Positions 6,126 to 59,771 of a stretch of 64,000 bases of DNA are shown here, in pieces. The stretch covers positions 19,364-83,363 of the forward strand of contig CABYXE010000004.1 in assembly GCA_902522825.1 (NCBI GenBank), given 5' to 3'. The position numbers and the translations under genes are program-made. The notes under the pieces are model-generated. The model had not been told where the DNA came from. It worked only from the letters and a program-made list of their open reading frames with translations, and did not search any database. This stretch comes from an uncultured SAR86 cluster bacterium (GTDB taxonomy: Bacteria > Pseudomonadota > Gammaproteobacteria > Magnimaribacterales > AG-339-G14). Each line of letters starts with the position of its first letter. Position 1 is the first letter of the stretch.

Positions 6126-6201
6126 TGGTGGGTCGTATAGGATTCGAACCTATGACCAATTGATTAAAAGCCAACTGCTCTACCAACTGAGCTAACGACC
6201 C
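6126..6201 (-). tRNA. lysT: tRNA-Lys (anticodon UUU)
   Basis: The reverse complement GGGTCGTTAGCTCAGTTGGTAGAGCAGTTGGCTTTTAATCAATTGGTCATAGGTTCGAATCCTATACGACCCACCA folds as a cloverleaf with anticodon loop CUUUUAA and an encoded CCA. It is nearly identical to E. coli tRNA-Lys and lies downstream of cpoB as in E. coli. Confidence 0.97.
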
Positions 6202-24367: not shown

Positions 24368-25456
24368 TTAAGCTGTTTCTGAAAAATCTAATGGTTGTTC
24401 TAAAGAAACCCAATCTATATCGCCATCTGTTGGCCAATTTTCGTACTCTAAAACGCCTAATTCATCATAAAGTGGTCTGACATTTTCGGTTAACAGCCCT
24501 ATCCTTGAAAGATTTGGCACAACTCTTGTGAATAAAAGATGTTGAAAGTTGTTAGCAACATCTGCTTTTTGTGCAAAAGCTTGTGCTTCATCTTTATCCC
24601 AACCAAAATTTTCATAAACATCGGCTGACATAAGTCTACCTCTCATTACAAGGCAAGCCTCGTAAGCAAATTGAGCTCTTTCTTCTAGCTCTTCTTGAGA
24701 TAGAGTCTTTAAAAACTCTTCAAGATAATTAACACCAAAAGTCACGTGTCTTGCTTCGTCTCTAATTATTAAATAAAGCATATCTTTAAAAACAGGATCA
24801 TTAGTTCCTTGTCTTGCTACATTGAAGGCGGCTAATGCGAGTCCTTCAATAATTATTTGCATGCCAATAAATTTTAAGTCCCATCTTGGGTCTGTAAGGA
24901 TTTTATCTAAAAGAGATTTTAAGCCGTTACCAATTGGATACATCATTCTTTGTCTAGTTTGAATGTATTTGTTAAACGCCTCTACGTGTCTTGCTTCATC
25001 AAAAGTCTGAGAAGCTGCATACAACTTTGCATTAAAAGTAGGTGCACAGGAAACTAATTGAGAAGCAACTAGTAAGGCTCCTTGTTCTCCATGGAGGAAC
25101 TGACTTAAAGACCATGAACCTCTATGCTGTAAAAATCTGAATTTATCTTCATTAGAAAGATCTTGATATGGCTTGTATTCATCCCAAAATATAGGTGGAG
25201 GAGTCTCTCCTCTGTCTGGCATGGGTTGTGACCAATCCACATCAGTTGCAGCATTCCAGTTTAGCTCTTTACCTAATTCGTAAAGTCTCTTGATGCGATT
25301 ATCTTGAATGGTGTAATCCCAGTTATATGCTCCTGTAAGAGGAGTTTGAAAGATCTCAGCAACGTCTTCAACTTGTTCTTCAGAAAGACCTAATTCGTTT
25401 TCAACCGGAAATTCTCTAATATTTCTCGGTGTTTCTTTTACTTTTTTTATTTTCAT
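24368..25456 (-). CDS. ferritin-like diiron-carboxylate protein (AurF/R2-like oxygenase family), function unknown
   Basis: 362 aa with two copies of E-x29-D-E-A-R-H: HGEQGA...FDEARHVE and IIEGLA...IRDEARHVT. Confidence 0.6.
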   Translation of the reverse strand: MKIKKVKETPRNIREFPVENELGLSEEQVEDVAEIFQTPLTGAYNWDYTIQDNRIKRLYELGKELNWNAATDVDWSQPMPDRGETPPPIFWDEYKPYQDLSNEDKFRFLQHRGSWSLSQFLHGEQGALLVASQLVSCAPTFNAKLYAASQTFDEARHVEAFNKYIQTRQRMMYPIGNGLKSLLDKILTDPRWDLKFIGMQIIIEGLALAAFNVARQGTNDPVFKDMLYLIIRDEARHVTFGVNYLEEFLKTLSQEELEERAQFAYEACLVMRGRLMSADVYENFGWDKDEAQAFAQKADVANNFQHLLFTRVVPNLSRIGLLTENVRPLYDELGVLEYENWPTDGDIDWVSLEQPLDFSETA

Positions 25457-44990: not shown

Positions 44991-45023
44991 AGAAGCTTAA
45001 AGAGCTAAATTTTAGGTTTTTTT

Positions 45024-45360
45024 GGAGAGCTGATCCATAAGCCGGGTTCTGTTTTAAGTAATCATTCATCTTGAGTTTACGTCACCGCAAACCTCTAGCA
45101 ACTTACCCAGATTCAATGCGGATCACATTAAAGAATCTCTATTTAGTCTTGCTCCAGACGGGGTTTACCTTGCAATATTTGTCTCCAAATATACGGTGAG
45201 CTCTTACCTCACCTTTTCACCCTTACCCAAAAATTGGGCGGTATACTTTCTGCTGCACTTGCCGTAACAGTTTTCACTGCTCCCAGGCGTTACCTGGCGT
45301 CTTATCCTAAGGAGCCCGGACTTTCCTCTGATTAAAAACCAGCGATTACTCGATCAGCTC
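45024..45360 (-). ncRNA. rnpB: RNase P RNA, bacterial type A
   Basis: The reverse complement contains GAGGAAAGTCCGGGCTCC, GCCAGGTAACGCCTGGG, GGTAAGGGTGAAAAGGTG and ACAGAACCCGGCTTAT, and the 5' end (GAGCTGATC) pairs with the 3' end (GATCAGCTC). About 337 nt. Confidence 0.95.
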
Positions 45361-45366
45361 GAAGAA

Positions 45367-46200: not shown

Positions 46201-47355
46201 ATGAATAGTACAACTCCAAAAAAAATATTATCTTTGTCGATAATTTTATTAATCCTATCTTGCTGCGCTTCAACTAGCAATCCAAGAATTTCTTCTTTTT
46301 ATCAAGATAATAACCCCAATGATGTAAGTAAAAAATTATTGCGAAATATATCTTCAGCATCTCAGAATAAGGATTTTCAGTTATTTTTTTTTGGCGAAGA
46401 ATCTATTAAAACAAAAAAGTTTCTAGAAGGTGCCCGGACATCATTTTTTTTTCAAAAATCTTTGAATAGAAATAAAAAAGAAATTTCTTTCAAAGATATA
46501 AATAATTCAAATTTATGCGAGGAAATAAGGACTTCATCTTCTTTTAAGATTATTGTATTTTCAAAAGTTCCAGATAATTTTTTAGCCAACTGCCTTGATA
46601 ATTTTAATTCAGACATATTATTAGTTTATTTAGGTAAGGAGAAAAATACCTTTAATAATAAATTTGTTACTTTGCAAAATCAAAACTACTTTGATGATTT
46701 ATTATCAGAAAAGATTTTTGATAAAGAAAATTTCATATTTTTATCCAAAGATATTGATGAAATAGAAAAACTTTCAAATACTCTTAAAAGCAATGAAATA
46801 TCCTTTCAAAATAGTGAGTTTTTGTTAATCGATGAATCAAATAATTTTGAAAACGAAATCGCGGAAGCTTTTGATTTAAACAACAGCAAAAATAGAAAAG
46901 AAGATCTTGAAAGAGTTATAAATAAAGATCTTAAGTTTGTTTCTCGATCTAGAATAGATATTTCAAAGGTAATTGTGAGTTCTAGCTCTGATATTGCCAA
47001 TAGATTAATTCCGGCTTTCAAATATAATCTTCTCTTCGACTTAGAGATTTACAATCTTCCAAATCATTATGATGTTTGGAAAAAAACTTCCTCACCTGTC
47101 GATTTAGAAGGAACATTTGGCTTAGAGCATCCTGTTTTACTTAATCGAATTAACCTTGGAACCAAAGATTTTTATTCTTACTCGCCTGAATCAAAAATTA
47201 ATTATTCTTTGGGTTTTGATCTTATAAATTTTTTAAATTACGGAAATGGCTATTTTGGACTATTAGGTGAATATAACTTTGTAAATAATGAAATAGAAAT
47301 AAGCCCGATCAATGTTTCGTTTCAAAAGAGTAATTTTATACAAAGCTTAAATTAA
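46201..47355 (+). CDS. lpoA: lipoprotein, probable reduced LpoA (PBP1a activator)
   Basis: Lipobox ILSCC. It is divergent from rsmI, as lpoA/yraM is in E. coli. At 384 aa it is shorter than the roughly 680 aa I recall for E. coli LpoA. The sequence is low-complexity and the call rests mainly on synteny. Confidence 0.45.
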   Translation: MNSTTPKKILSLSIILLILSCCASTSNPRISSFYQDNNPNDVSKKLLRNISSASQNKDFQLFFFGEESIKTKKFLEGARTSFFFQKSLNRNKKEISFKDINNSNLCEEIRTSSSFKIIVFSKVPDNFLANCLDNFNSDILLVYLGKEKNTFNNKFVTLQNQNYFDDLLSEKIFDKENFIFLSKDIDEIEKLSNTLKSNEISFQNSEFLLIDESNNFENEIAEAFDLNNSKNRKEDLERVINKDLKFVSRSRIDISKVIVSSSSDIANRLIPAFKYNLLFDLEIYNLPNHYDVWKKTSSPVDLEGTFGLEHPVLLNRINLGTKDFYSYSPESKINYSLGFDLINFLNYGNGYFGLLGEYNFVNNEIEISPINVSFQKSNFIQSLN

Positions 47356-55975: not shown

Positions 55976-56953
55976 ATGAATAAAAAAAGTCCTAATTTTT
56001 TTAGTTCAGCTAAAAAAACATTTTCCAAAGAGATCGATTCTTTGTCCCGTATTCCTAAACAAATTAATAAAAATAAATTCAATGAAATATGCAAGGTGAT
56101 TTTAAATTGTAAGGGTAATACTGTGCTAATGGGTATTGGAAAATCTGGAAACATTGCCGCAAAAATCTCTTCTACATTGTCAAGTACTGGAACTTCATCA
56201 TTCTATTTAAATGCCGCAGAAGCAAGTCATGGTGATCTAGGCAGTCTCAAGAAAAATGATATCTTAGTAATCTTGTCTTTTTCTGGCGAAACTGAAGAAA
56301 TTATCAAAATTTTTTCAGCATGCAAATCAAAGGTAAACAAAATAATCTCATTAACTGGCTCAAAAGACTCTACTCTAGCCAAAGAATCTCATTTTAGTTT
56401 AAATATTGATATTTCTGAAGAAGCCTGCCCCTTAAATCTAGCGCCAACAACAAGTTCTTCAGCCATGTTGATTTTGGGTGATGCTATTGCAATAAGTATT
56501 CTTGAAGCCAGAGATTTTTCTCCCGAGGATTTTGCAAAAAATCATCCAGGTGGAAAATTAGGCAAAAGCTTTCTTAAGGTTAAAGATCTTATGATTTCAG
56601 GGCCTCGCCTGCCCATTATTTCTGAATCTACTGATTTAAGAGACGCTATTTATGAAATATCTCACAAAGGGTTAGGTTTAACTTTAATAAAAAATAATAA
56701 AAACAAAATAATTGGTGTCTTCACTGATGGAGATCTGAGAAGATTTCTAAGCAAAAAAGTAAATATTGAAACTATCAAAATTAAGTCCTTGATGACCAAA
56801 AGCTTTAAGTCGATAAATCAAAATTTTCAAATAAAAAATGCTATTGACCAAATGAATAAAAATAAAATTTATTCTCTAGTTGTTAAAAATGAAAAAAATC
56901 AGGTTGTTGGACTTTTAAGAATGCATGACATTTTAGAAGCAAAAATCATTTAA
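55976..56953 (+). CDS. kdsD: arabinose-5-phosphate isomerase (SIS plus CBS pair)
   Basis: GIGKSGNIAAKISSTLSSTGT and NHPGGKLG, with C-terminal tandem CBS domains. Confidence 0.93.
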   Translation: MNKKSPNFFSSAKKTFSKEIDSLSRIPKQINKNKFNEICKVILNCKGNTVLMGIGKSGNIAAKISSTLSSTGTSSFYLNAAEASHGDLGSLKKNDILVILSFSGETEEIIKIFSACKSKVNKIISLTGSKDSTLAKESHFSLNIDISEEACPLNLAPTTSSSAMLILGDAIAISILEARDFSPEDFAKNHPGGKLGKSFLKVKDLMISGPRLPIISESTDLRDAIYEISHKGLGLTLIKNNKNKIIGVFTDGDLRRFLSKKVNIETIKIKSLMTKSFKSINQNFQIKNAIDQMNKNKIYSLVVKNEKNQVVGLLRMHDILEAKII

Positions 56954-57516
56954 TGTTCAAGCAAGCCTCCATCTATACTATTTTGTTATTGGCATTAATT
57001 TCTTTGGCTTTTTTTCTCAGTACTTATTACCTAAACTCAAAGTCAGACCAAGTAAAAGAACAAAACTTAAATATTTTTCAAGCAAAAGATATTAGCCTTA
57101 AATTAAATTTTTTTAGTTCAGATTTTGATATAACTCTTAAAAGTAGAATGATAAACGGACTGACAGACTCGAAAATATTAGATATTTTTAATCCAACAAT
57201 TTACTTAAAAAACTCATCATTAGAAGTAGAAATCATCTCAGAGAGTTCAAAGCTAAATTATGGTACTGAAGAACTGCTGATACCTAATAAAATGAGTTTT
57301 AAAGGGAAATATCTTGGCAAACCTTTTAGAGGTGAAGCAGATCAAATGAAATTTAATTTTTTGGATAATAGAGTTTTTTTTAATAAAGATTTAGTAATTA
57401 TATTTGACGAAAAAGAATATAAGGGCAGAAATATTGAAATAGATACACAACTCCAGTCTATTATTGATAGTGATAAAATAACTATTAATGCAGTCAATGA
57501 TTTTAAAAGCAGATAA
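56953..57516 (+). CDS. lptC: LPS export system protein LptC
   Basis: 187 aa with an N-terminal TM anchor, located between kdsD and lptB. The sequence is weakly diagnostic. Confidence 0.65.
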   Translation: MFKQASIYTILLLALISLAFFLSTYYLNSKSDQVKEQNLNIFQAKDISLKLNFFSSDFDITLKSRMINGLTDSKILDIFNPTIYLKNSSLEVEIISESSKLNYGTEELLIPNKMSFKGKYLGKPFRGEADQMKFNFLDNRVFFNKDLVIIFDEKEYKGRNIEIDTQLQSIIDSDKITINAVNDFKSR

Positions 57517-58204
57517 AATATCTAAAAATTATGGAAAAAAAAGTATTTTGCATGATATTGATGCAGATATTAACGTAAATGAAATTAGTGGGTTACTAGG
57601 TCCAAATGGAGCAGGAAAGACAACTTTATTCTATATTTTAGCAGGGCTCTTGCAGCCATCTGAAGGAGAAATAATTTTTGATAAAAGTATCATTACAAGG
57701 AAAACAATAAGTGAAAGAGCTAATTTAGGAATAGTTTATCTACCTCAAGAACCATCTATCTTTAGAAATTTAAGTGTTTTAGAAAATATTAAATCCGCTT
57801 TTGAAATTCAAAAAATAAATAAAGTTGATATCGATTTAAAAACAGAAGAAATCTTAAATGATTTTGATATCGAATCTATAGCTATGCAAAAAGGAAATCA
57901 ATTATCTGGTGGTCAGAGGCGAAGGGTTGAAATAGCGAGATCAATTTCTTTAAATCCTAAATTTGTAATGTTGGATGAACCTTTTGCTGGCATTGATCCA
58001 ATTGCAATACATGAGATAAAAGAATTGATAAAAAAATTATCAGATAAGGGTCTTGGAATATTAATAAGTGATCATAACGTAAAAGCTACAATGGATATTT
58101 GCAATGAAATTTTTATTATTAATGAAGGATGTATTATCTCAAAAGGGACTCCTGAAGAAGTTTCCAAAAATAAAATTGTTAAAAAAACCTATTTAGGCGA
58201 ATAA
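57488..58204 (+). CDS. lptB: LPS export ABC transporter ATPase LptB
   Basis: Walker A GPNGAGKTT, signature LSGGQRRR and Walker B VMLDEP. An alternative start lies at 57497. Confidence 0.95.
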   Translation: MQSMILKADKISKNYGKKSILHDIDADINVNEISGLLGPNGAGKTTLFYILAGLLQPSEGEIIFDKSIITRKTISERANLGIVYLPQEPSIFRNLSVLENIKSAFEIQKINKVDIDLKTEEILNDFDIESIAMQKGNQLSGGQRRRVEIARSISLNPKFVMLDEPFAGIDPIAIHEIKELIKKLSDKGLGILISDHNVKATMDICNEIFIINEGCIISKGTPEEVSKNKIVKKTYLGE

Positions 58205-58209
58205 ATTTT

Positions 58210-58437
58210 ATGAAAAAAAAGTCACTTTTAATTAATCAGTTAAAACTTAAAAGGAGTTTAAGAACAGAGATTTATGAATTTTTAAAGAAAGAAATCGAAA
58301 CTGAAAATGAAAATAAGAAATCTGACGAAGAATTATCAGATTTATTTAATACAAAATTTGATTCAAAGATCTCAAGAAAGACTATTGCTAAATATAGACA
58401 AGAATTGGGTATTCCTTCCTCCATTAAAAGAAAATGA
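58210..58437 (+). CDS. 75-aa ORF equal to the C-terminal RpoN-box fragment of sigma-54 (relic or mini-protein)
   Basis: LKKEIETEN...SDEELSDLF...ISRKTIAKYRQELGIPSSIKRK is colinear with the sigma-54 C-terminus ([21 protein letters not shown]). It sits in the rpoN position after lptB. Confidence 0.6.
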   Translation: MKKKSLLINQLKLKRSLRTEIYEFLKKEIETENENKKSDEELSDLFNTKFDSKISRKTIAKYRQELGIPSSIKRK

Positions 58438-59771
58438 ATAATGCTTCTTCTTTAAACATAGGTTTCATACAAGAAGAGCTACTAAAAGGAGAGTTTAAAA
58501 ATTTAAAAAAAATGTTCAATGGGATTCCTCCATATGACATTGCGATTTTGTTGGAATCTAGTTCTCCAAATAATAGAGCAATAATCTGGCAATTAATTGA
58601 TGAGGCCATAGAAGGAGAAATTTTAAGCAATCTTTCTGAAGAAGTAAGAGAAATGATCCTAACTTTTATGGATCCATCTGAAGTAGCAAACGTCATTAAA
58701 AATCTTCAACCAGATCAAATTGCAGATATTCTGCAGGATCTACCTGAAACAGTAATAGCTGAAGTTTTAGATGCAATGACAGATCAGAATAGACAGCTTG
58801 TAAAAAAAGTTCTTGTCTACCCCGAAAATACTGCAGGCGGATTAATGAATACTGATCTTATTTTAGTAAGACCAAACCACACACTAGAAGTAGTTTTAAA
58901 ATATTTGAGACTTAAAAAAGCCTTACCAAATTCTACTGATAATCTTTTTGTAGTAAGCAAAACAAATAAGTTTAGAGGCGTTCTTCCTATCTCTAAAATT
59001 TTAACAAGTTCTCCTAGTACATTAGTAAAAGATTTAATGCAAGACGAAATGGATTCAATAAATGTTGATACGGATTCTTTAGAGGTTATAAGAGTTTTTG
59101 AAAAGAATGACTTAATCTCAGCTCCTGTAACAGATAATGAAAATAATTTGATTGGAAGAATTACCTTTGATGATGTAATAGATGAAATTAAATCAGAAGC
59201 TGATGAATCGCTGAGGCAAATATCGGGAATTGATAGCGATACTTTTGAAAAAACTAGTACAGCAATAAAGAAAAGAGGATTTTGGCTTGGAACAAATCTT
59301 ATTACTGCTTTAATTGCAGCTTCTGTAATAAACATCTTTAAAGAAACATTAGAAGAAGTAATATTTTTAGCCGTTTTGATGCCGATTATTGCGAGTATGG
59401 GCGGAGTTGCTGCTACTCAGACACTTACAATAACTGTTAGAGGATTAGCATTGGGCCAAATTGTGAAAGCTAATTATAAATATATTTTCAATAGAGAGTT
59501 AATTGTAGGTATTACAAATGGTTTCCTTTGGGCAATTGTTTTGAGTTTAATTGCATGCTTATGGTTTCAAGACTGGACGCTTATATGGGTAATAAGTTTA
59601 TCAATGATTATAAATTTACTTGCAGGTATTCTATCAGGAATGGGTATCCCTATTCTTCTGAGGAGCCTTAAAATGGATCCAGCAGTTGCAGGAAGCGTTA
59701 TCGTAACTACGGTGACAGACGTTGTAGGGTTCTTTTCCTTTTTAGGATTTGCCTCTTATTTTTATTCCTAA
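58434..59771 (+). CDS. mgtE: magnesium transporter MgtE
   Basis: N-domain, CBS pair and a C-terminal TM domain with PIIASMGGVAATQT and GSVIVTTVTDVVGF. Confidence 0.95.
   Translation: MNNASSLNIGFIQEELLKGEFKNLKKMFNGIPPYDIAILLESSSPNNRAIIWQLIDEAIEGEILSNLSEEVREMILTFMDPSEVANVIKNLQPDQIADILQDLPETVIAEVLDAMTDQNRQLVKKVLVYPENTAGGLMNTDLILVRPNHTLEVVLKYLRLKKALPNSTDNLFVVSKTNKFRGVLPISKILTSSPSTLVKDLMQDEMDSINVDTDSLEVIRVFEKNDLISAPVTDNENNLIGRITFDDVIDEIKSEADESLRQISGIDSDTFEKTSTAIKKRGFWLGTNLITALIAASVINIFKETLEEVIFLAVLMPIIASMGGVAATQTLTITVRGLALGQIVKANYKYIFNRELIVGITNGFLWAIVLSLIACLWFQDWTLIWVISLSMIINLLAGILSGMGIPILLRSLKMDPAVAGSVIVTTVTDVVGFFSFLGFASYFYS

What the first reader, a model, noticed from the sequence alone, without database searches (positions are those of the whole stretch)
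58210..58437. Intact 75-aa RpoN-box relic occupying the rpoN locus
In gammaproteobacteria, lptB is followed by rpoN (about 480 aa) and then hpf-ptsN-rapZ-npr. Here a single 75-aa ORF starts 6 nt after the lptB stop, and none of those genes is present. Its last ~55 residues are colinear with the extreme C-terminus of sigma-54. The window reads LKKEIETENENKKSDEELSDLFNTKFDSKISRKTIAKYRQELGIPSSIKRK. E. coli RpoN, recalled from memory, reads [51 protein letters not shown]. The activator-interacting, core-binding and HTH regions are all missing. Even so, the reading frame is intact and overlaps the mgtE start by ATGA, which suggests retained translation. It is either a frozen deletion scar documenting loss of sigma-54, or a free-standing RpoN-box DNA-binding mini-protein. 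I do not know of a described example of the latter.
Basis: partly seen in the sequence, partly recalled or inferred. Interest (0 to 1): 0.65.

Follow-up and report, generated by a model that had tools for sequence, protein, structure and literature searches.

The report
Stand-alone sigma-54 RpoN-domain gene in SAR86
In the abundant marine SAR86 bacteria, only the last 75 codons of the sigma-54 gene remain after lptB, and this small DNA-binding domain has been kept as an independent gene under purifying selection, so it is a working protein of unknown target and not a dead remnant.

Summary
ORF 58210-58437 (+) encodes 75 aa. It lies 5 nt after lptB and overlaps mgtE by ATGA. It matches only the last third of Pfam Sigma54_DBD (positions 102-159 of 160, E 5.9e-12). 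Its best solved relative is the 63-residue Aquifex RpoN domain, which was solved bound to -24 promoter DNA (2O8K).

It is not a scar. The lptB-mini-mgtE arrangement is identical in every SAR86 (Magnimaribacterales) locus I fetched, including two clusters only 40-60% identical. All 12 complete copies found by a DNA-level scan are intact. Nine independent close pairs give dN/dS 0.10 (Fisher p 1e-32), similar to lptB. The RpoN-box helix SRKTIAKYR keeps its amino acids while its codons vary. An Arg-to-Lys change in the box is present in 54 of 54 mini-proteins but in only 1 of 182 full-length sigma-54s.

My best reading is a free-standing, basic RpoN-domain DNA-binding protein. It has no RNA-polymerase-binding or activator-binding parts, and it is translationally coupled inside a kdsD-lptC-lptB-mini-mgtE operon.

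Three things are not shown: DNA binding, the target, and genome-wide absence of full-length rpoN and its activators. I found no publication describing it. Public records call it "hypothetical protein" or "sigma-54 factor".

The parts
58210..58437 (+). Mini-rpoN gene: 75 aa, pI 9.8, a stand-alone RpoN domain of sigma-54
   Evidence: ORF. Pfam Sigma54_DBD positions 102-159 of 160, E 5.9e-12. TIGR02395 positions 378-434 of 434. PDB 2O8K/2AHQ E 5.5e-8 alone and 1.3e-9 with the family profile. dN/dS 0.10, p 1e-32. pI.
58216..58248 (+). Predicted N-terminal helix (residues 3-13). It is part of a basic segment (residues 1-19, net charge +7) and may derive from the LKxFF segment of sigma-54
   Evidence: AF2 secondary structure. 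Charge. HMMER alignment of profile positions 4-75 to sigma-54 residues 327-399. dN/dS for residues 1-17 is 0.125.
58258..58359 (+). Helices 1 and 2 of the three-helix RpoN bundle (residues 17-31 and 39-50). Includes invariant E32, D39 and L42, which align to K. pneumoniae sigma-54 residues whose mutation abolishes activity
   Evidence: Mutant table in PMC2715252, rows AC431/432, 439/440 and 441/442. I made the residue mapping by hand from the alignment.
58372..58398 (+). RpoN box / recognition helix codons S55-R63 (SRKTIAKYR, against canonical ARRTVAKYR)
   Evidence: Regex hit. Across 19 distinct sequences the amino acids are invariant (only A60 changes, to S) while 2-3 synonymous codons are used per site. 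RK replaces RR in 54 of 54 minis and in 1 of 182 full-length sigma-54s.
58434..58437 (+). ATGA overlap: the mgtE start codon overlaps the mini-gene stop codon (translational coupling)
   Evidence: The same AAATGA junction occurs in all 12 complete metagenome loci and in loci L081-L110.
58195..58200 (+). Shine-Dalgarno-like AGGCGA (AGGTGA in most relatives) inside the last lptB codons, 9 nt before the mini ATG
   Evidence: Read directly from the sequence and from the upstream 30 nt of relatives. Its function is inferred.
57488..58204 (+). lptB, the upstream gene of the operon
   Evidence: TIGR04406, E 9.4e-89, above its cut-off.
58434..59771 (+). mgtE, the downstream, translationally coupled gene
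   Evidence: TIGR00400, E 6.4e-83. Pfam MgtE_N, CBS and MgtE.
55976..57516 (+). kdsD (55976-56953) and a 187-aa LptC-like gene (56953-57516), the first genes of the presumed operon
   Evidence: Pfam SIS+CBS, and a weak LptD_N/LptA hit at E 0.052. No above-chance promoter or terminator lies between kdsD and mgtE.

Best explanation
**What it is.** The ORF is a functional gene descended from the 3' end of rpoN. An ancestor of the SAR86 lineages sampled here deleted the activator-interacting, core-binding and HTH regions of sigma-54, and also the downstream hpf-ptsN-rapZ-npr genes. The last ~75 codons survived as an independent cistron.

**The product.** The product is the three-helix RpoN domain, preceded by a short basic helix. 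In sigma-54 this domain inserts the RpoN-box helix into the major groove of the -24 promoter element. It touches neither RNA polymerase core nor the rest of sigma.

**How it most likely works.** Because it lacks every polymerase-binding and activator-binding part, it cannot be a sigma factor. The most likely action is as a small stand-alone DNA-binding protein, either a site-specific occluder/repressor or an architectural factor. Its recognition helix carries a lineage-fixed Arg-to-Lys change, so its specificity may have shifted from TGGCAC.

**Expression.** It is expressed from the kdsD-lptC-lptB-mini-mgtE operon. It is translationally coupled to lptB upstream (5-nt gap or overlapping start) and to mgtE downstream (ATGA).

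**Shown:** origin, domain identity, intactness, synteny and purifying selection at the amino-acid level.

**Inferred:** DNA binding, regulatory role, target, and loss of full-length sigma-54.
For: **Domain identity.**
- Pfam, NCBIfam and PDB matches are restricted to the RpoN domain.
- The AF2 model (pLDDT 76) has helices at 17-31, 39-50 and 56-66. Its nine best Foldseek hits are all sigma-54 chains (probability 0.84-0.99, rmsd 1.6-3.0 A over 54-61 columns).
- The isolated Aquifex RpoN domain (63 and 76 aa constructs) was solved alone and on -24 DNA (PDB 2AHQ, 2O8K).
- A review states that the domain contacts neither other parts of sigma-54 nor core, and is a somewhat independent recognition module (PMC5095919).

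**Selection.**
- Nine independent close pairs give pS 0.210, pN 0.025, dN/dS 0.10, Fisher p 1e-32. Residues 18-75 give 0.086 and residues 1-17 give 0.125.
- Deep pairs give 0.05-0.16, against 0.07-0.15 for lptB.
- Diversity by codon position is 0.214 / 0.120 / 0.397.

**Intactness and synteny.**
- 12 of 12 complete copies found by DNA pattern plus tblastn are intact.
- 53 homologues of 64-81 aa were found.
- There are three clusters at 50% identity, all sitting between lptB and mgtE.
- The mini-protein diverges more slowly than LptC and faster than LptB.

**Functional residues.** Invariant residues of the family align to K. pneumoniae sigma-54 pairs whose Ala/Cys replacement gives 0-8% activity: 431/432, 439/440, 455/456, 457/458, 461/462, 467/468 and 473/474.
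Against: - No DNA target was found. TGGCAC occurs 9 times against 7.9 expected, all inside ORFs. The full -24/-12 consensus with up to 2 mismatches occurs 23 times against 17.4 +/- 4.3.
- The conserved intergenic regions of the locus show no GG element.
- The window holds only about 3 kb of non-coding DNA, so this search has little power.
- A monomeric 60-residue HTH usually binds weakly and with low specificity.
- Canonical features are altered: PLSD becomes K-SD, the second box Arg becomes Lys, and there is a 1-residue insertion before the recognition helix.
- There is no expression or proteomic evidence.
- Part of the selective value of an open frame here could be delivering ribosomes to mgtE.
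Confidence: 0.6

Rival explanations
1. Pure deletion scar or pseudogene. The frame is open only by chance or because the deletion is recent, and the peptide has no function.
For: It sits exactly where rpoN should be and lacks about 85% of the gene. Comparable rpoN relics exist in Neisseria and are not detectably expressed (PMC6755734).
Against: dN/dS is 0.10 with p 1e-32. Variation is dominated by the third codon position. All 12 DNA-level copies are intact. The ORF is retained in three clusters whose LptB is only 64-69% identical, within genomes of about 95% coding density.
Confidence: 0.03
2. Translational-coupling spacer. The ORF is kept because ribosomes finishing it re-initiate at the overlapping mgtE start. 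Being translated matters; the peptide does not.
For: The ATGA overlap with mgtE is universal. No strong Shine-Dalgarno sequence precedes mgtE. The starts abut or overlap lptB, and some relatives use TTG or GTG starts. No internal promoter or terminator rises above chance.
Against: A spacer would need only an open frame, so dN/dS would be near 1. Observed dN/dS is 0.10, and the strongest constraint falls on the RpoN-box helix and the bundle core. Length is fixed at 74-78 codons over deep divergence. Coupling may well be an additional benefit.
Confidence: 0.1
3. Repurposed protein-binding or RNA-binding module. The three-helix bundle survives but now binds a protein partner (for example MgtE, LptB or RNA polymerase) or RNA, not duplex DNA.
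For: It is invariably linked to and coupled with lptB and mgtE. The recognition helix carries a fixed R-to-K change and the H2-H3 turn has an insertion. No DNA motif was found.
Against: The residues most conserved are those used for DNA recognition in sigma-54. The protein is strongly basic at both ends, +7 and +7. The synteny is explained simply by in-situ deletion.
Confidence: 0.15
4. Split sigma-54. The N-terminal parts (RI, CBD, HTH) are encoded elsewhere in SAR86 genomes, and the mini-protein supplies -24 recognition in trans. A variant: it competes with a full-length sigma-54 for -24 elements.
For: I could not scan whole SAR86 genomes, so a second rpoN-like gene is not excluded. In closed complexes the C-terminal tail of the RpoN domain touches the CBD (PMC5505868).
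Against: rpoN normally follows lptB in Proteobacteria, and that slot is occupied here (established synteny). The window has no GAFTGA activator, no second RpoN box and no sigma-54 promoter excess. An exhaustive profile search returned no SAR86-like full-length protein above the generic sigma-54 background. From my own knowledge, the related order Francisellales has only sigma-70 and sigma-32; the phylogenetic placement is from PMC11582366.
Confidence: 0.05

Closest known systems
RpoN domain of sigma-54: Aquifex aeolicus residues ~323-398 (PDB 2AHQ, 2O8K, 2O9L) and E. coli residues ~410-477
   Same: Same fold and motif: a three-helix bundle whose third helix is the RpoN box. The length is the same as the 63-76 aa laboratory constructs that fold and bind -24 DNA on their own. 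The E. coli/K. pneumoniae C-terminal domain solved alone (2MT3) aligns at E 1.1e-4. Other support.
   Different: In nature that domain is the C-terminus of a 400-500 aa sigma factor. Here it is a separate gene. The SAR86 form has RK in place of RR in the box, S in place of A at box position 1, a 1-residue insertion before the recognition helix, loss of the P-L of the PLSD motif, and a basic N-terminal helix.
Neisseria rpoN-like sequence (RLS) and atypical meningococcal sigma-N alleles
   Same: These are remnants of rpoN left at the rpoN locus in a lineage that no longer uses sigma-54 and has no GAFTGA activators (PMC6755734).
   Different: The Neisseria relics keep the N-terminal and core-binding parts. 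They have lost the HTH, and some have also lost the RpoN box. They range from 120 to 289 aa with frameshifts and truncations among isolates, and no protein was detected. The SAR86 gene keeps only the RpoN domain, is uniform in length, and is under purifying selection.
Tandem RpoN-domain repeat proteins found here (P0058/P0365, P0066, P0366, P0064)
   Same: They use the RpoN domain outside a sigma factor. P0058 repeats share the longer H2-H3 turn with the SAR86 mini-protein and score higher against its profile (E 1.4e-18) than any full-length sigma-54 does (E >= 8.6e-9).
   Different: They have 2-9 repeats in 303-603 aa proteins with signal-like N-termini and hypervariable box residues. The family is rare (3 hits; P0064 came). 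They sit in defence-island-like contexts. They are not orthologues of the SAR86 gene.

Membership tests
Sigma-54 (RpoN) sigma factor | N-terminal activator-interacting region I (Pfam PF00309) | tested here: not met
   No hit at E <= 1. The protein is only 75 aa.
Sigma-54 (RpoN) sigma factor | Core RNA-polymerase-binding domain (Pfam PF04963) | tested here: not met
   No hit. The TIGR02395 match covers only positions 378-434 of 434 and scores 47 bits against a cut-off of 277.
Sigma-54 (RpoN) sigma factor | ELH-HTH that reads the -12 element (first ~100 positions of PF04552) | tested here: not met
   The match starts at profile position 102 of 160.
Sigma-54 (RpoN) sigma factor | RpoN box ARRTVAKYR at the C-terminus | tested here: met
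   SRKTIAKYR at residues 55-63. The second Arg is replaced by Lys in all family members.
RpoN domain (C-terminal sub-domain of Sigma54_DBD) as a fold | Three-helix bundle with the box as the third, recognition helix | tested here: met
   AF2 helices at 17-31, 39-50 and 56-66, pLDDT 76. The top nine Foldseek PDB hits are sigma-54 chains with rmsd 1.6-3.0 A, although Foldseek E-values are weak (0.2-1.1) for so small a domain.
RpoN domain (C-terminal sub-domain of Sigma54_DBD) as a fold | Sequence-specific binding to the GG of a -24 element | not testable with these tools
   Only indirect evidence: box residues are conserved. No enrichment of TGGCAC or the -24/-12 consensus in the window.
Non-functional gene relic (pseudogene) | Relaxed constraint (dN/dS near 1) and sporadic frameshifts or truncations among relatives | tested here: not met
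   dN/dS 0.10, p 1e-32. 12 of 12 DNA-level copies are intact. Length is 74-78 aa in nearly all cluster members.

The most novel reading that the evidence does not exclude
A sigma factor has been reduced to its promoter-recognition module and exapted as an autonomous DNA-binding regulator. The mini-protein binds a -24-like (GG-containing) or newly evolved site without RNA polymerase. On this reading it would be one of the few transcription regulators in SAR86 (how few SAR86 has was not examined here), and it would be conserved across the SAR86 lineages sampled. Together with the tandem RpoN-domain proteins, this would establish the RpoN domain as a stand-alone DNA-binding fold family outside sigma-54.
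Probability: 0.4. Interest if true: 0.75.

Novelty: new variant of a known kind. Interest (0 to 1): 0.62.

Why it matters
**Evolution of sigma-54.** Sigma-54 is a textbook single-architecture protein, and its RpoN domain has been studied in isolation only as a laboratory construct. Here nature has made the same construct and kept it under selection across divergent lineages of SAR86. That order makes up about 2-6% of the surface-ocean community (PMC11582366). This is a clean case of domain-level survival after the loss of a whole regulatory system. It shows that genome streamlining can recycle a piece of a lost sigma factor.

**A testable prediction.** The work predicts a small DNA-binding protein whose target can be found by DAP-seq or SELEX. 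Whether the gene is present in the cultured isolate HIMB1674 was not checked here and should be.

**Annotation.** Public records call it either "RNA polymerase sigma-54 factor" or "hypothetical protein". The first label would make SAR86 wrongly appear sigma-54-positive in surveys that key on PF04552.

Tried and rejected
1. **Genome-contig scan with LptB as an unbiased anchor.** I therefore could not survey GTDB SAR86 species or outgroups for the state of the locus.
2. **Homologue search with a mixed alignment A2.** The profile absorbed the HTH columns from three longer sequences, so the top 120 hits were Campylobacterota sigma-54s. This did show that P0063 and P0077, the best full-length hits, are Campylobacterota-type and not SAR86 ancestors.
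3. **P0065 (148 aa, HTH plus RpoN box) as a possible intermediate relic.** It lies on an 822-bp, 26% GC contig with upstream stops in all frames and no lptB or mgtE. Its origin cannot be interpreted, so I dropped it.
4. **Other 65-90 aa hits in the exhaustive search.** Most start inside the LKYFF motif, carry the adaptor artefact MCIRDR, or share a domain but have unrelated N-termini. I judged them gene-call fragments, not independent mini-proteins.
5. **Sigma-54 promoter, TGGCAC and intergenic motif searches.** No signal, and the power is low.
6. **RNA-element explanation.** No Rfam hit at E <= 1, and the folding z-score is +0.97.
7. **Literature searches.** These covered SAR86 with sigma-54, rpoN or sigma factors, stand-alone RpoN domains, and PF04552. 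Nothing describes this gene. Table S1 of the SAR86 isolate paper lists RpoD and RpoH as present but has no sigma-54 marker in the stored part.

Full report
**1. The observation**

- The window is AT-rich (about 31% GC) and about 95% coding.
- ORF 58210-58437 (+) encodes MKKKSLLINQLKLKRSLRTEIYEFLKKEIETENENKKSDEELSDLFNTKFDSKISRKTIAKYRQELGIPSSIKRK.
- lptB (TIGR04406, E 9.4e-89) ends at 58204. mgtE (TIGR00400, E 6.4e-83) starts at 58434 and overlaps the ORF's stop as ATGA.
- Pfam Sigma54_DBD matches residues 18-75 to profile positions 102-159 of 160 (E 5.9e-12, 46 bits, cut-off 22.8). TIGR02395 matches positions 378-434 of 434.
- No activator-interacting or core-binding domain is detected, and the HTH part of the DBD profile is not matched.

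**2. Which part of sigma-54 survives**

- The best solved relatives are the isolated Aquifex aeolicus RpoN domain constructs: 2O8K/2O9L (63 aa, on -24 DNA) and 2AHQ (76 aa). E is 5.5e-8 with the single sequence and 1.3e-9 with the family profile. Full-length sigma-54 chains follow.
- An AlphaFold2 model (pLDDT 76) has helices at residues 3-13, 17-31, 39-50 and 56-66.
- Its nine best Foldseek PDB hits are all sigma-54 chains (probability 0.84-0.99, rmsd 1.6-3.0 A, 36-41% identity). E-values are weak for such a small domain.
- HMMER aligned positions 4-75 of the family profile to residues 327-399 of a 400-aa sigma-54, beginning at LKSFF. So the whole ORF is probably colinear with the last ~73 residues of sigma-54.
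- The truncation therefore falls at a structural domain boundary.
- The literature describes the RpoN domain as a three-helix bundle that contacts neither core nor other parts of sigma-54 in the holoenzyme and is a "somewhat independent promoter recognition module" (PMC5095919). In closed complexes its extreme C-terminal tail touches the CBD (PMC5505868).

**3. Whether it is a gene or a scar**

*Distribution*
- A word-indexed search found 53 homologues, all 64-81 aa and 67-96% identical, from SAR86.
- An exhaustive HMMER search of 1.84 billion representatives found three clusters at 50% identity: P0019, P0057 and P0067. Everything else was full-length sigma-54 or evident fragments.
- The two divergent clusters are populous. 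One has 8 members and the other 48, almost all 76 aa. They occur on up to 99 contigs, including contigs of 0.83 and 1.29 Mb.

*Synteny*
- Every locus fetched has the same order...hisG-murA-mlaC | kdsD-lptC-lptB-mini-mgtE | mreDCB | gatCAB... This includes the divergent clusters.
- At the deepest comparisons the mini-protein is 40-60% identical. LptB is 64-69%, MgtE 61-77% and LptC 29-41%.

*Intactness*
- A DNA-level scan that is independent of gene calling returned 14 loci.
- The 12 complete ones all carry an intact 75-codon frame ending in AAATGA. The other two are cut by contig ends.

*Selection*
- Deep pairs have saturated dS and dN/dS of 0.05-0.16, like lptB at 0.07-0.15.
- Nine independent close pairs sum to 79.5 synonymous differences over 378 sites and 40.5 non-synonymous differences over 1626 sites. 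That gives dN/dS 0.10, Fisher p 1e-32.
- Residues 18-75 give 0.086 and residues 1-17 give 0.125.
- Diversity by codon position is 0.214 / 0.120 / 0.397.
- Codons S55-R63 keep their amino acids (only A60 changes, to S) while using 2-3 synonymous codons each.

*RNA alternative*
- There is no Rfam match and no excess RNA structure in the ORF.

The scar reading is rejected.

**4. Derived features**

- All 54 mini-proteins in hand have R-K at box positions 2-3. Of the full-length sigma-54s in the same sample, 177 of 182 have R-R and one has R-K. The sample is biased towards Campylobacterota.
- The family also has a 1-residue insertion in the turn before the recognition helix, and has lost one residue of the KPLSD motif.
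- The protein is basic (pI 9.8). Net charge is +7 for residues 1-19, -6 for residues 20-52 and +7 for residues 53-75.
- Invariant family residues align to K. pneumoniae sigma-54 pairs whose replacement abolishes or nearly abolishes activity. The alignment is and I did the numbering by hand. The pairs are 431/432, 439/440, 455/456, 457/458, 461/462, 467/468 and 473/474 (PMC2715252).

**5. Mechanism**

*Shown*
- The product is an RpoN domain and nothing else.
- It is under amino-acid-level selection that is strongest on the recognition helix.
- It is embedded in an operon with tight junctions: a 5-nt gap or overlapping ATG/TTG/GTG start at lptB, and ATGA at mgtE. No internal promoter or terminator rises above chance.

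*Inferred*
- It binds duplex DNA through the box helix without RNA polymerase, acting as an occluder/repressor or an architectural protein.
- The R-to-K change may have shifted its specificity.
- The open frame probably also serves to couple mgtE translation.

*Not shown*
- No target is known.
- TGGCAC occurs 9 times against 7.9 expected, all inside ORFs. The -24/-12 consensus occurs 23 times against 17.4 +/- 4.3 with none closer than two mismatches.
- The conserved intergenic regions of the locus carry sigma-70-like elements only.
- With about 3 kb of intergenic DNA in the window, this is a weak test.

**6. Loss of sigma-54**

- The window contains no second RpoN box and no GAFTGA activator.
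- Pfam annotation of 30 further ORFs found only housekeeping genes.
- hpf-ptsN-rapZ-npr are missing from the locus in every relative.
- SAR86 (Magnimaribacterales) is placed as a deep gammaproteobacterial order sharing ancestry with Francisellales (PMC11582366). From my own knowledge, Francisellales has only sigma-70 and sigma-32.
- RpoD and RpoH are listed as present in SAR86 marker tables.
- Genome-wide absence of full-length rpoN remains an inference.

**7. Comparison with what is known**

- The gene is not a sigma-54. Three of four defining features fail.
- It is a member of the RpoN-domain fold.
- The closest natural precedent for an rpoN relic is the Neisseria RLS. That relic keeps the opposite end of the protein, varies by frameshift and truncation, and gives no detectable protein (PMC6755734; PMC12316311).
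- I found no paper describing a conserved stand-alone RpoN-domain gene, in SAR86 or elsewhere.
- Databases label it "hypothetical protein" or "RNA polymerase sigma-54 factor".

**8. Verdict**

This is a real, conserved, selected gene: a stand-alone RpoN domain. I class it as a new variant of a known kind. Interest is moderately high for two reasons. It is unexpected for sigma-54 biology, and it occurs in one of the ocean's most abundant bacterial orders. The score is limited by the absence of any functional or target evidence.

Noticed in passing
Proteins P0058/P0365 (L112 2531-3934), P0066 (L111 8001-9812), P0366, P0064: A rare family of proteins built from 2-9 tandem RpoN domains with signal-like or lipoprotein-like N-termini. 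Scaffold residues are conserved between repeats. The positions equivalent to the RpoN-box A-R-R-T-x-A-K are hypervariable (STYAVRK, SNERVRQ, SEATFYK, and so on). P0066 lies 2.6 kb upstream of ZorA-like, OmpA, EH_Signature and SNF2-HNH genes (Zorya-like). P0365 lies next to a MotA_ExbB gene and near a DNA methyltransferase.
   Followed up: partly
window 55976-58204: The LPS-export operon is reduced to kdsD, a 187-aa LptC-like gene and lptB. No kdsC or separate lptA lies between them. The 187-aa product has an N-terminal membrane helix and only a weak LptD_N/LptA Pfam hit (E 0.052). It is the fastest-evolving gene of the locus, at 29-41% identity in the deepest comparisons.
   Followed up: partly
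L094 (822-bp contig, 26% GC): P0065 (148 aa) is the HTH plus RpoN-box half of a sigma-54. Its frame continues upstream and then meets stops in all frames. It may be a decaying rpoN in an unidentified, very AT-rich organism, or an assembly artefact.
   Followed up: partly
Protein P0179 (502 aa): This is the only full-length sigma-54 in the sample that carries Arg-Lys in the RpoN box (SRKTIGNYR), the substitution that is otherwise diagnostic of the SAR86 mini-proteins. Its organism is unknown.
   Followed up: no
L081, L082, L109 (long-read 'pilon' and JGI contigs): Several housekeeping genes appear split in these assemblies: hisD in L081; mreB, gatA and an AMP-binding gene in L082; murA and mlaC in L109. 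These are probably indel errors in long-read assemblies and not real pseudogenes. The mini-gene is intact in all three.
   Followed up: no
window 45022-45361 (-) and 6129-6201 (-): RNase P RNA class A (306 bits) and one tRNA are the only Rfam gathering-level hits in the window.
   Followed up: no
window 46201-47355 (+): A 384-aa ORF has no Pfam family at E <= 1e-6. An AurF-like di-iron oxygenase homologue lies at 24368-25456.
   Followed up: no
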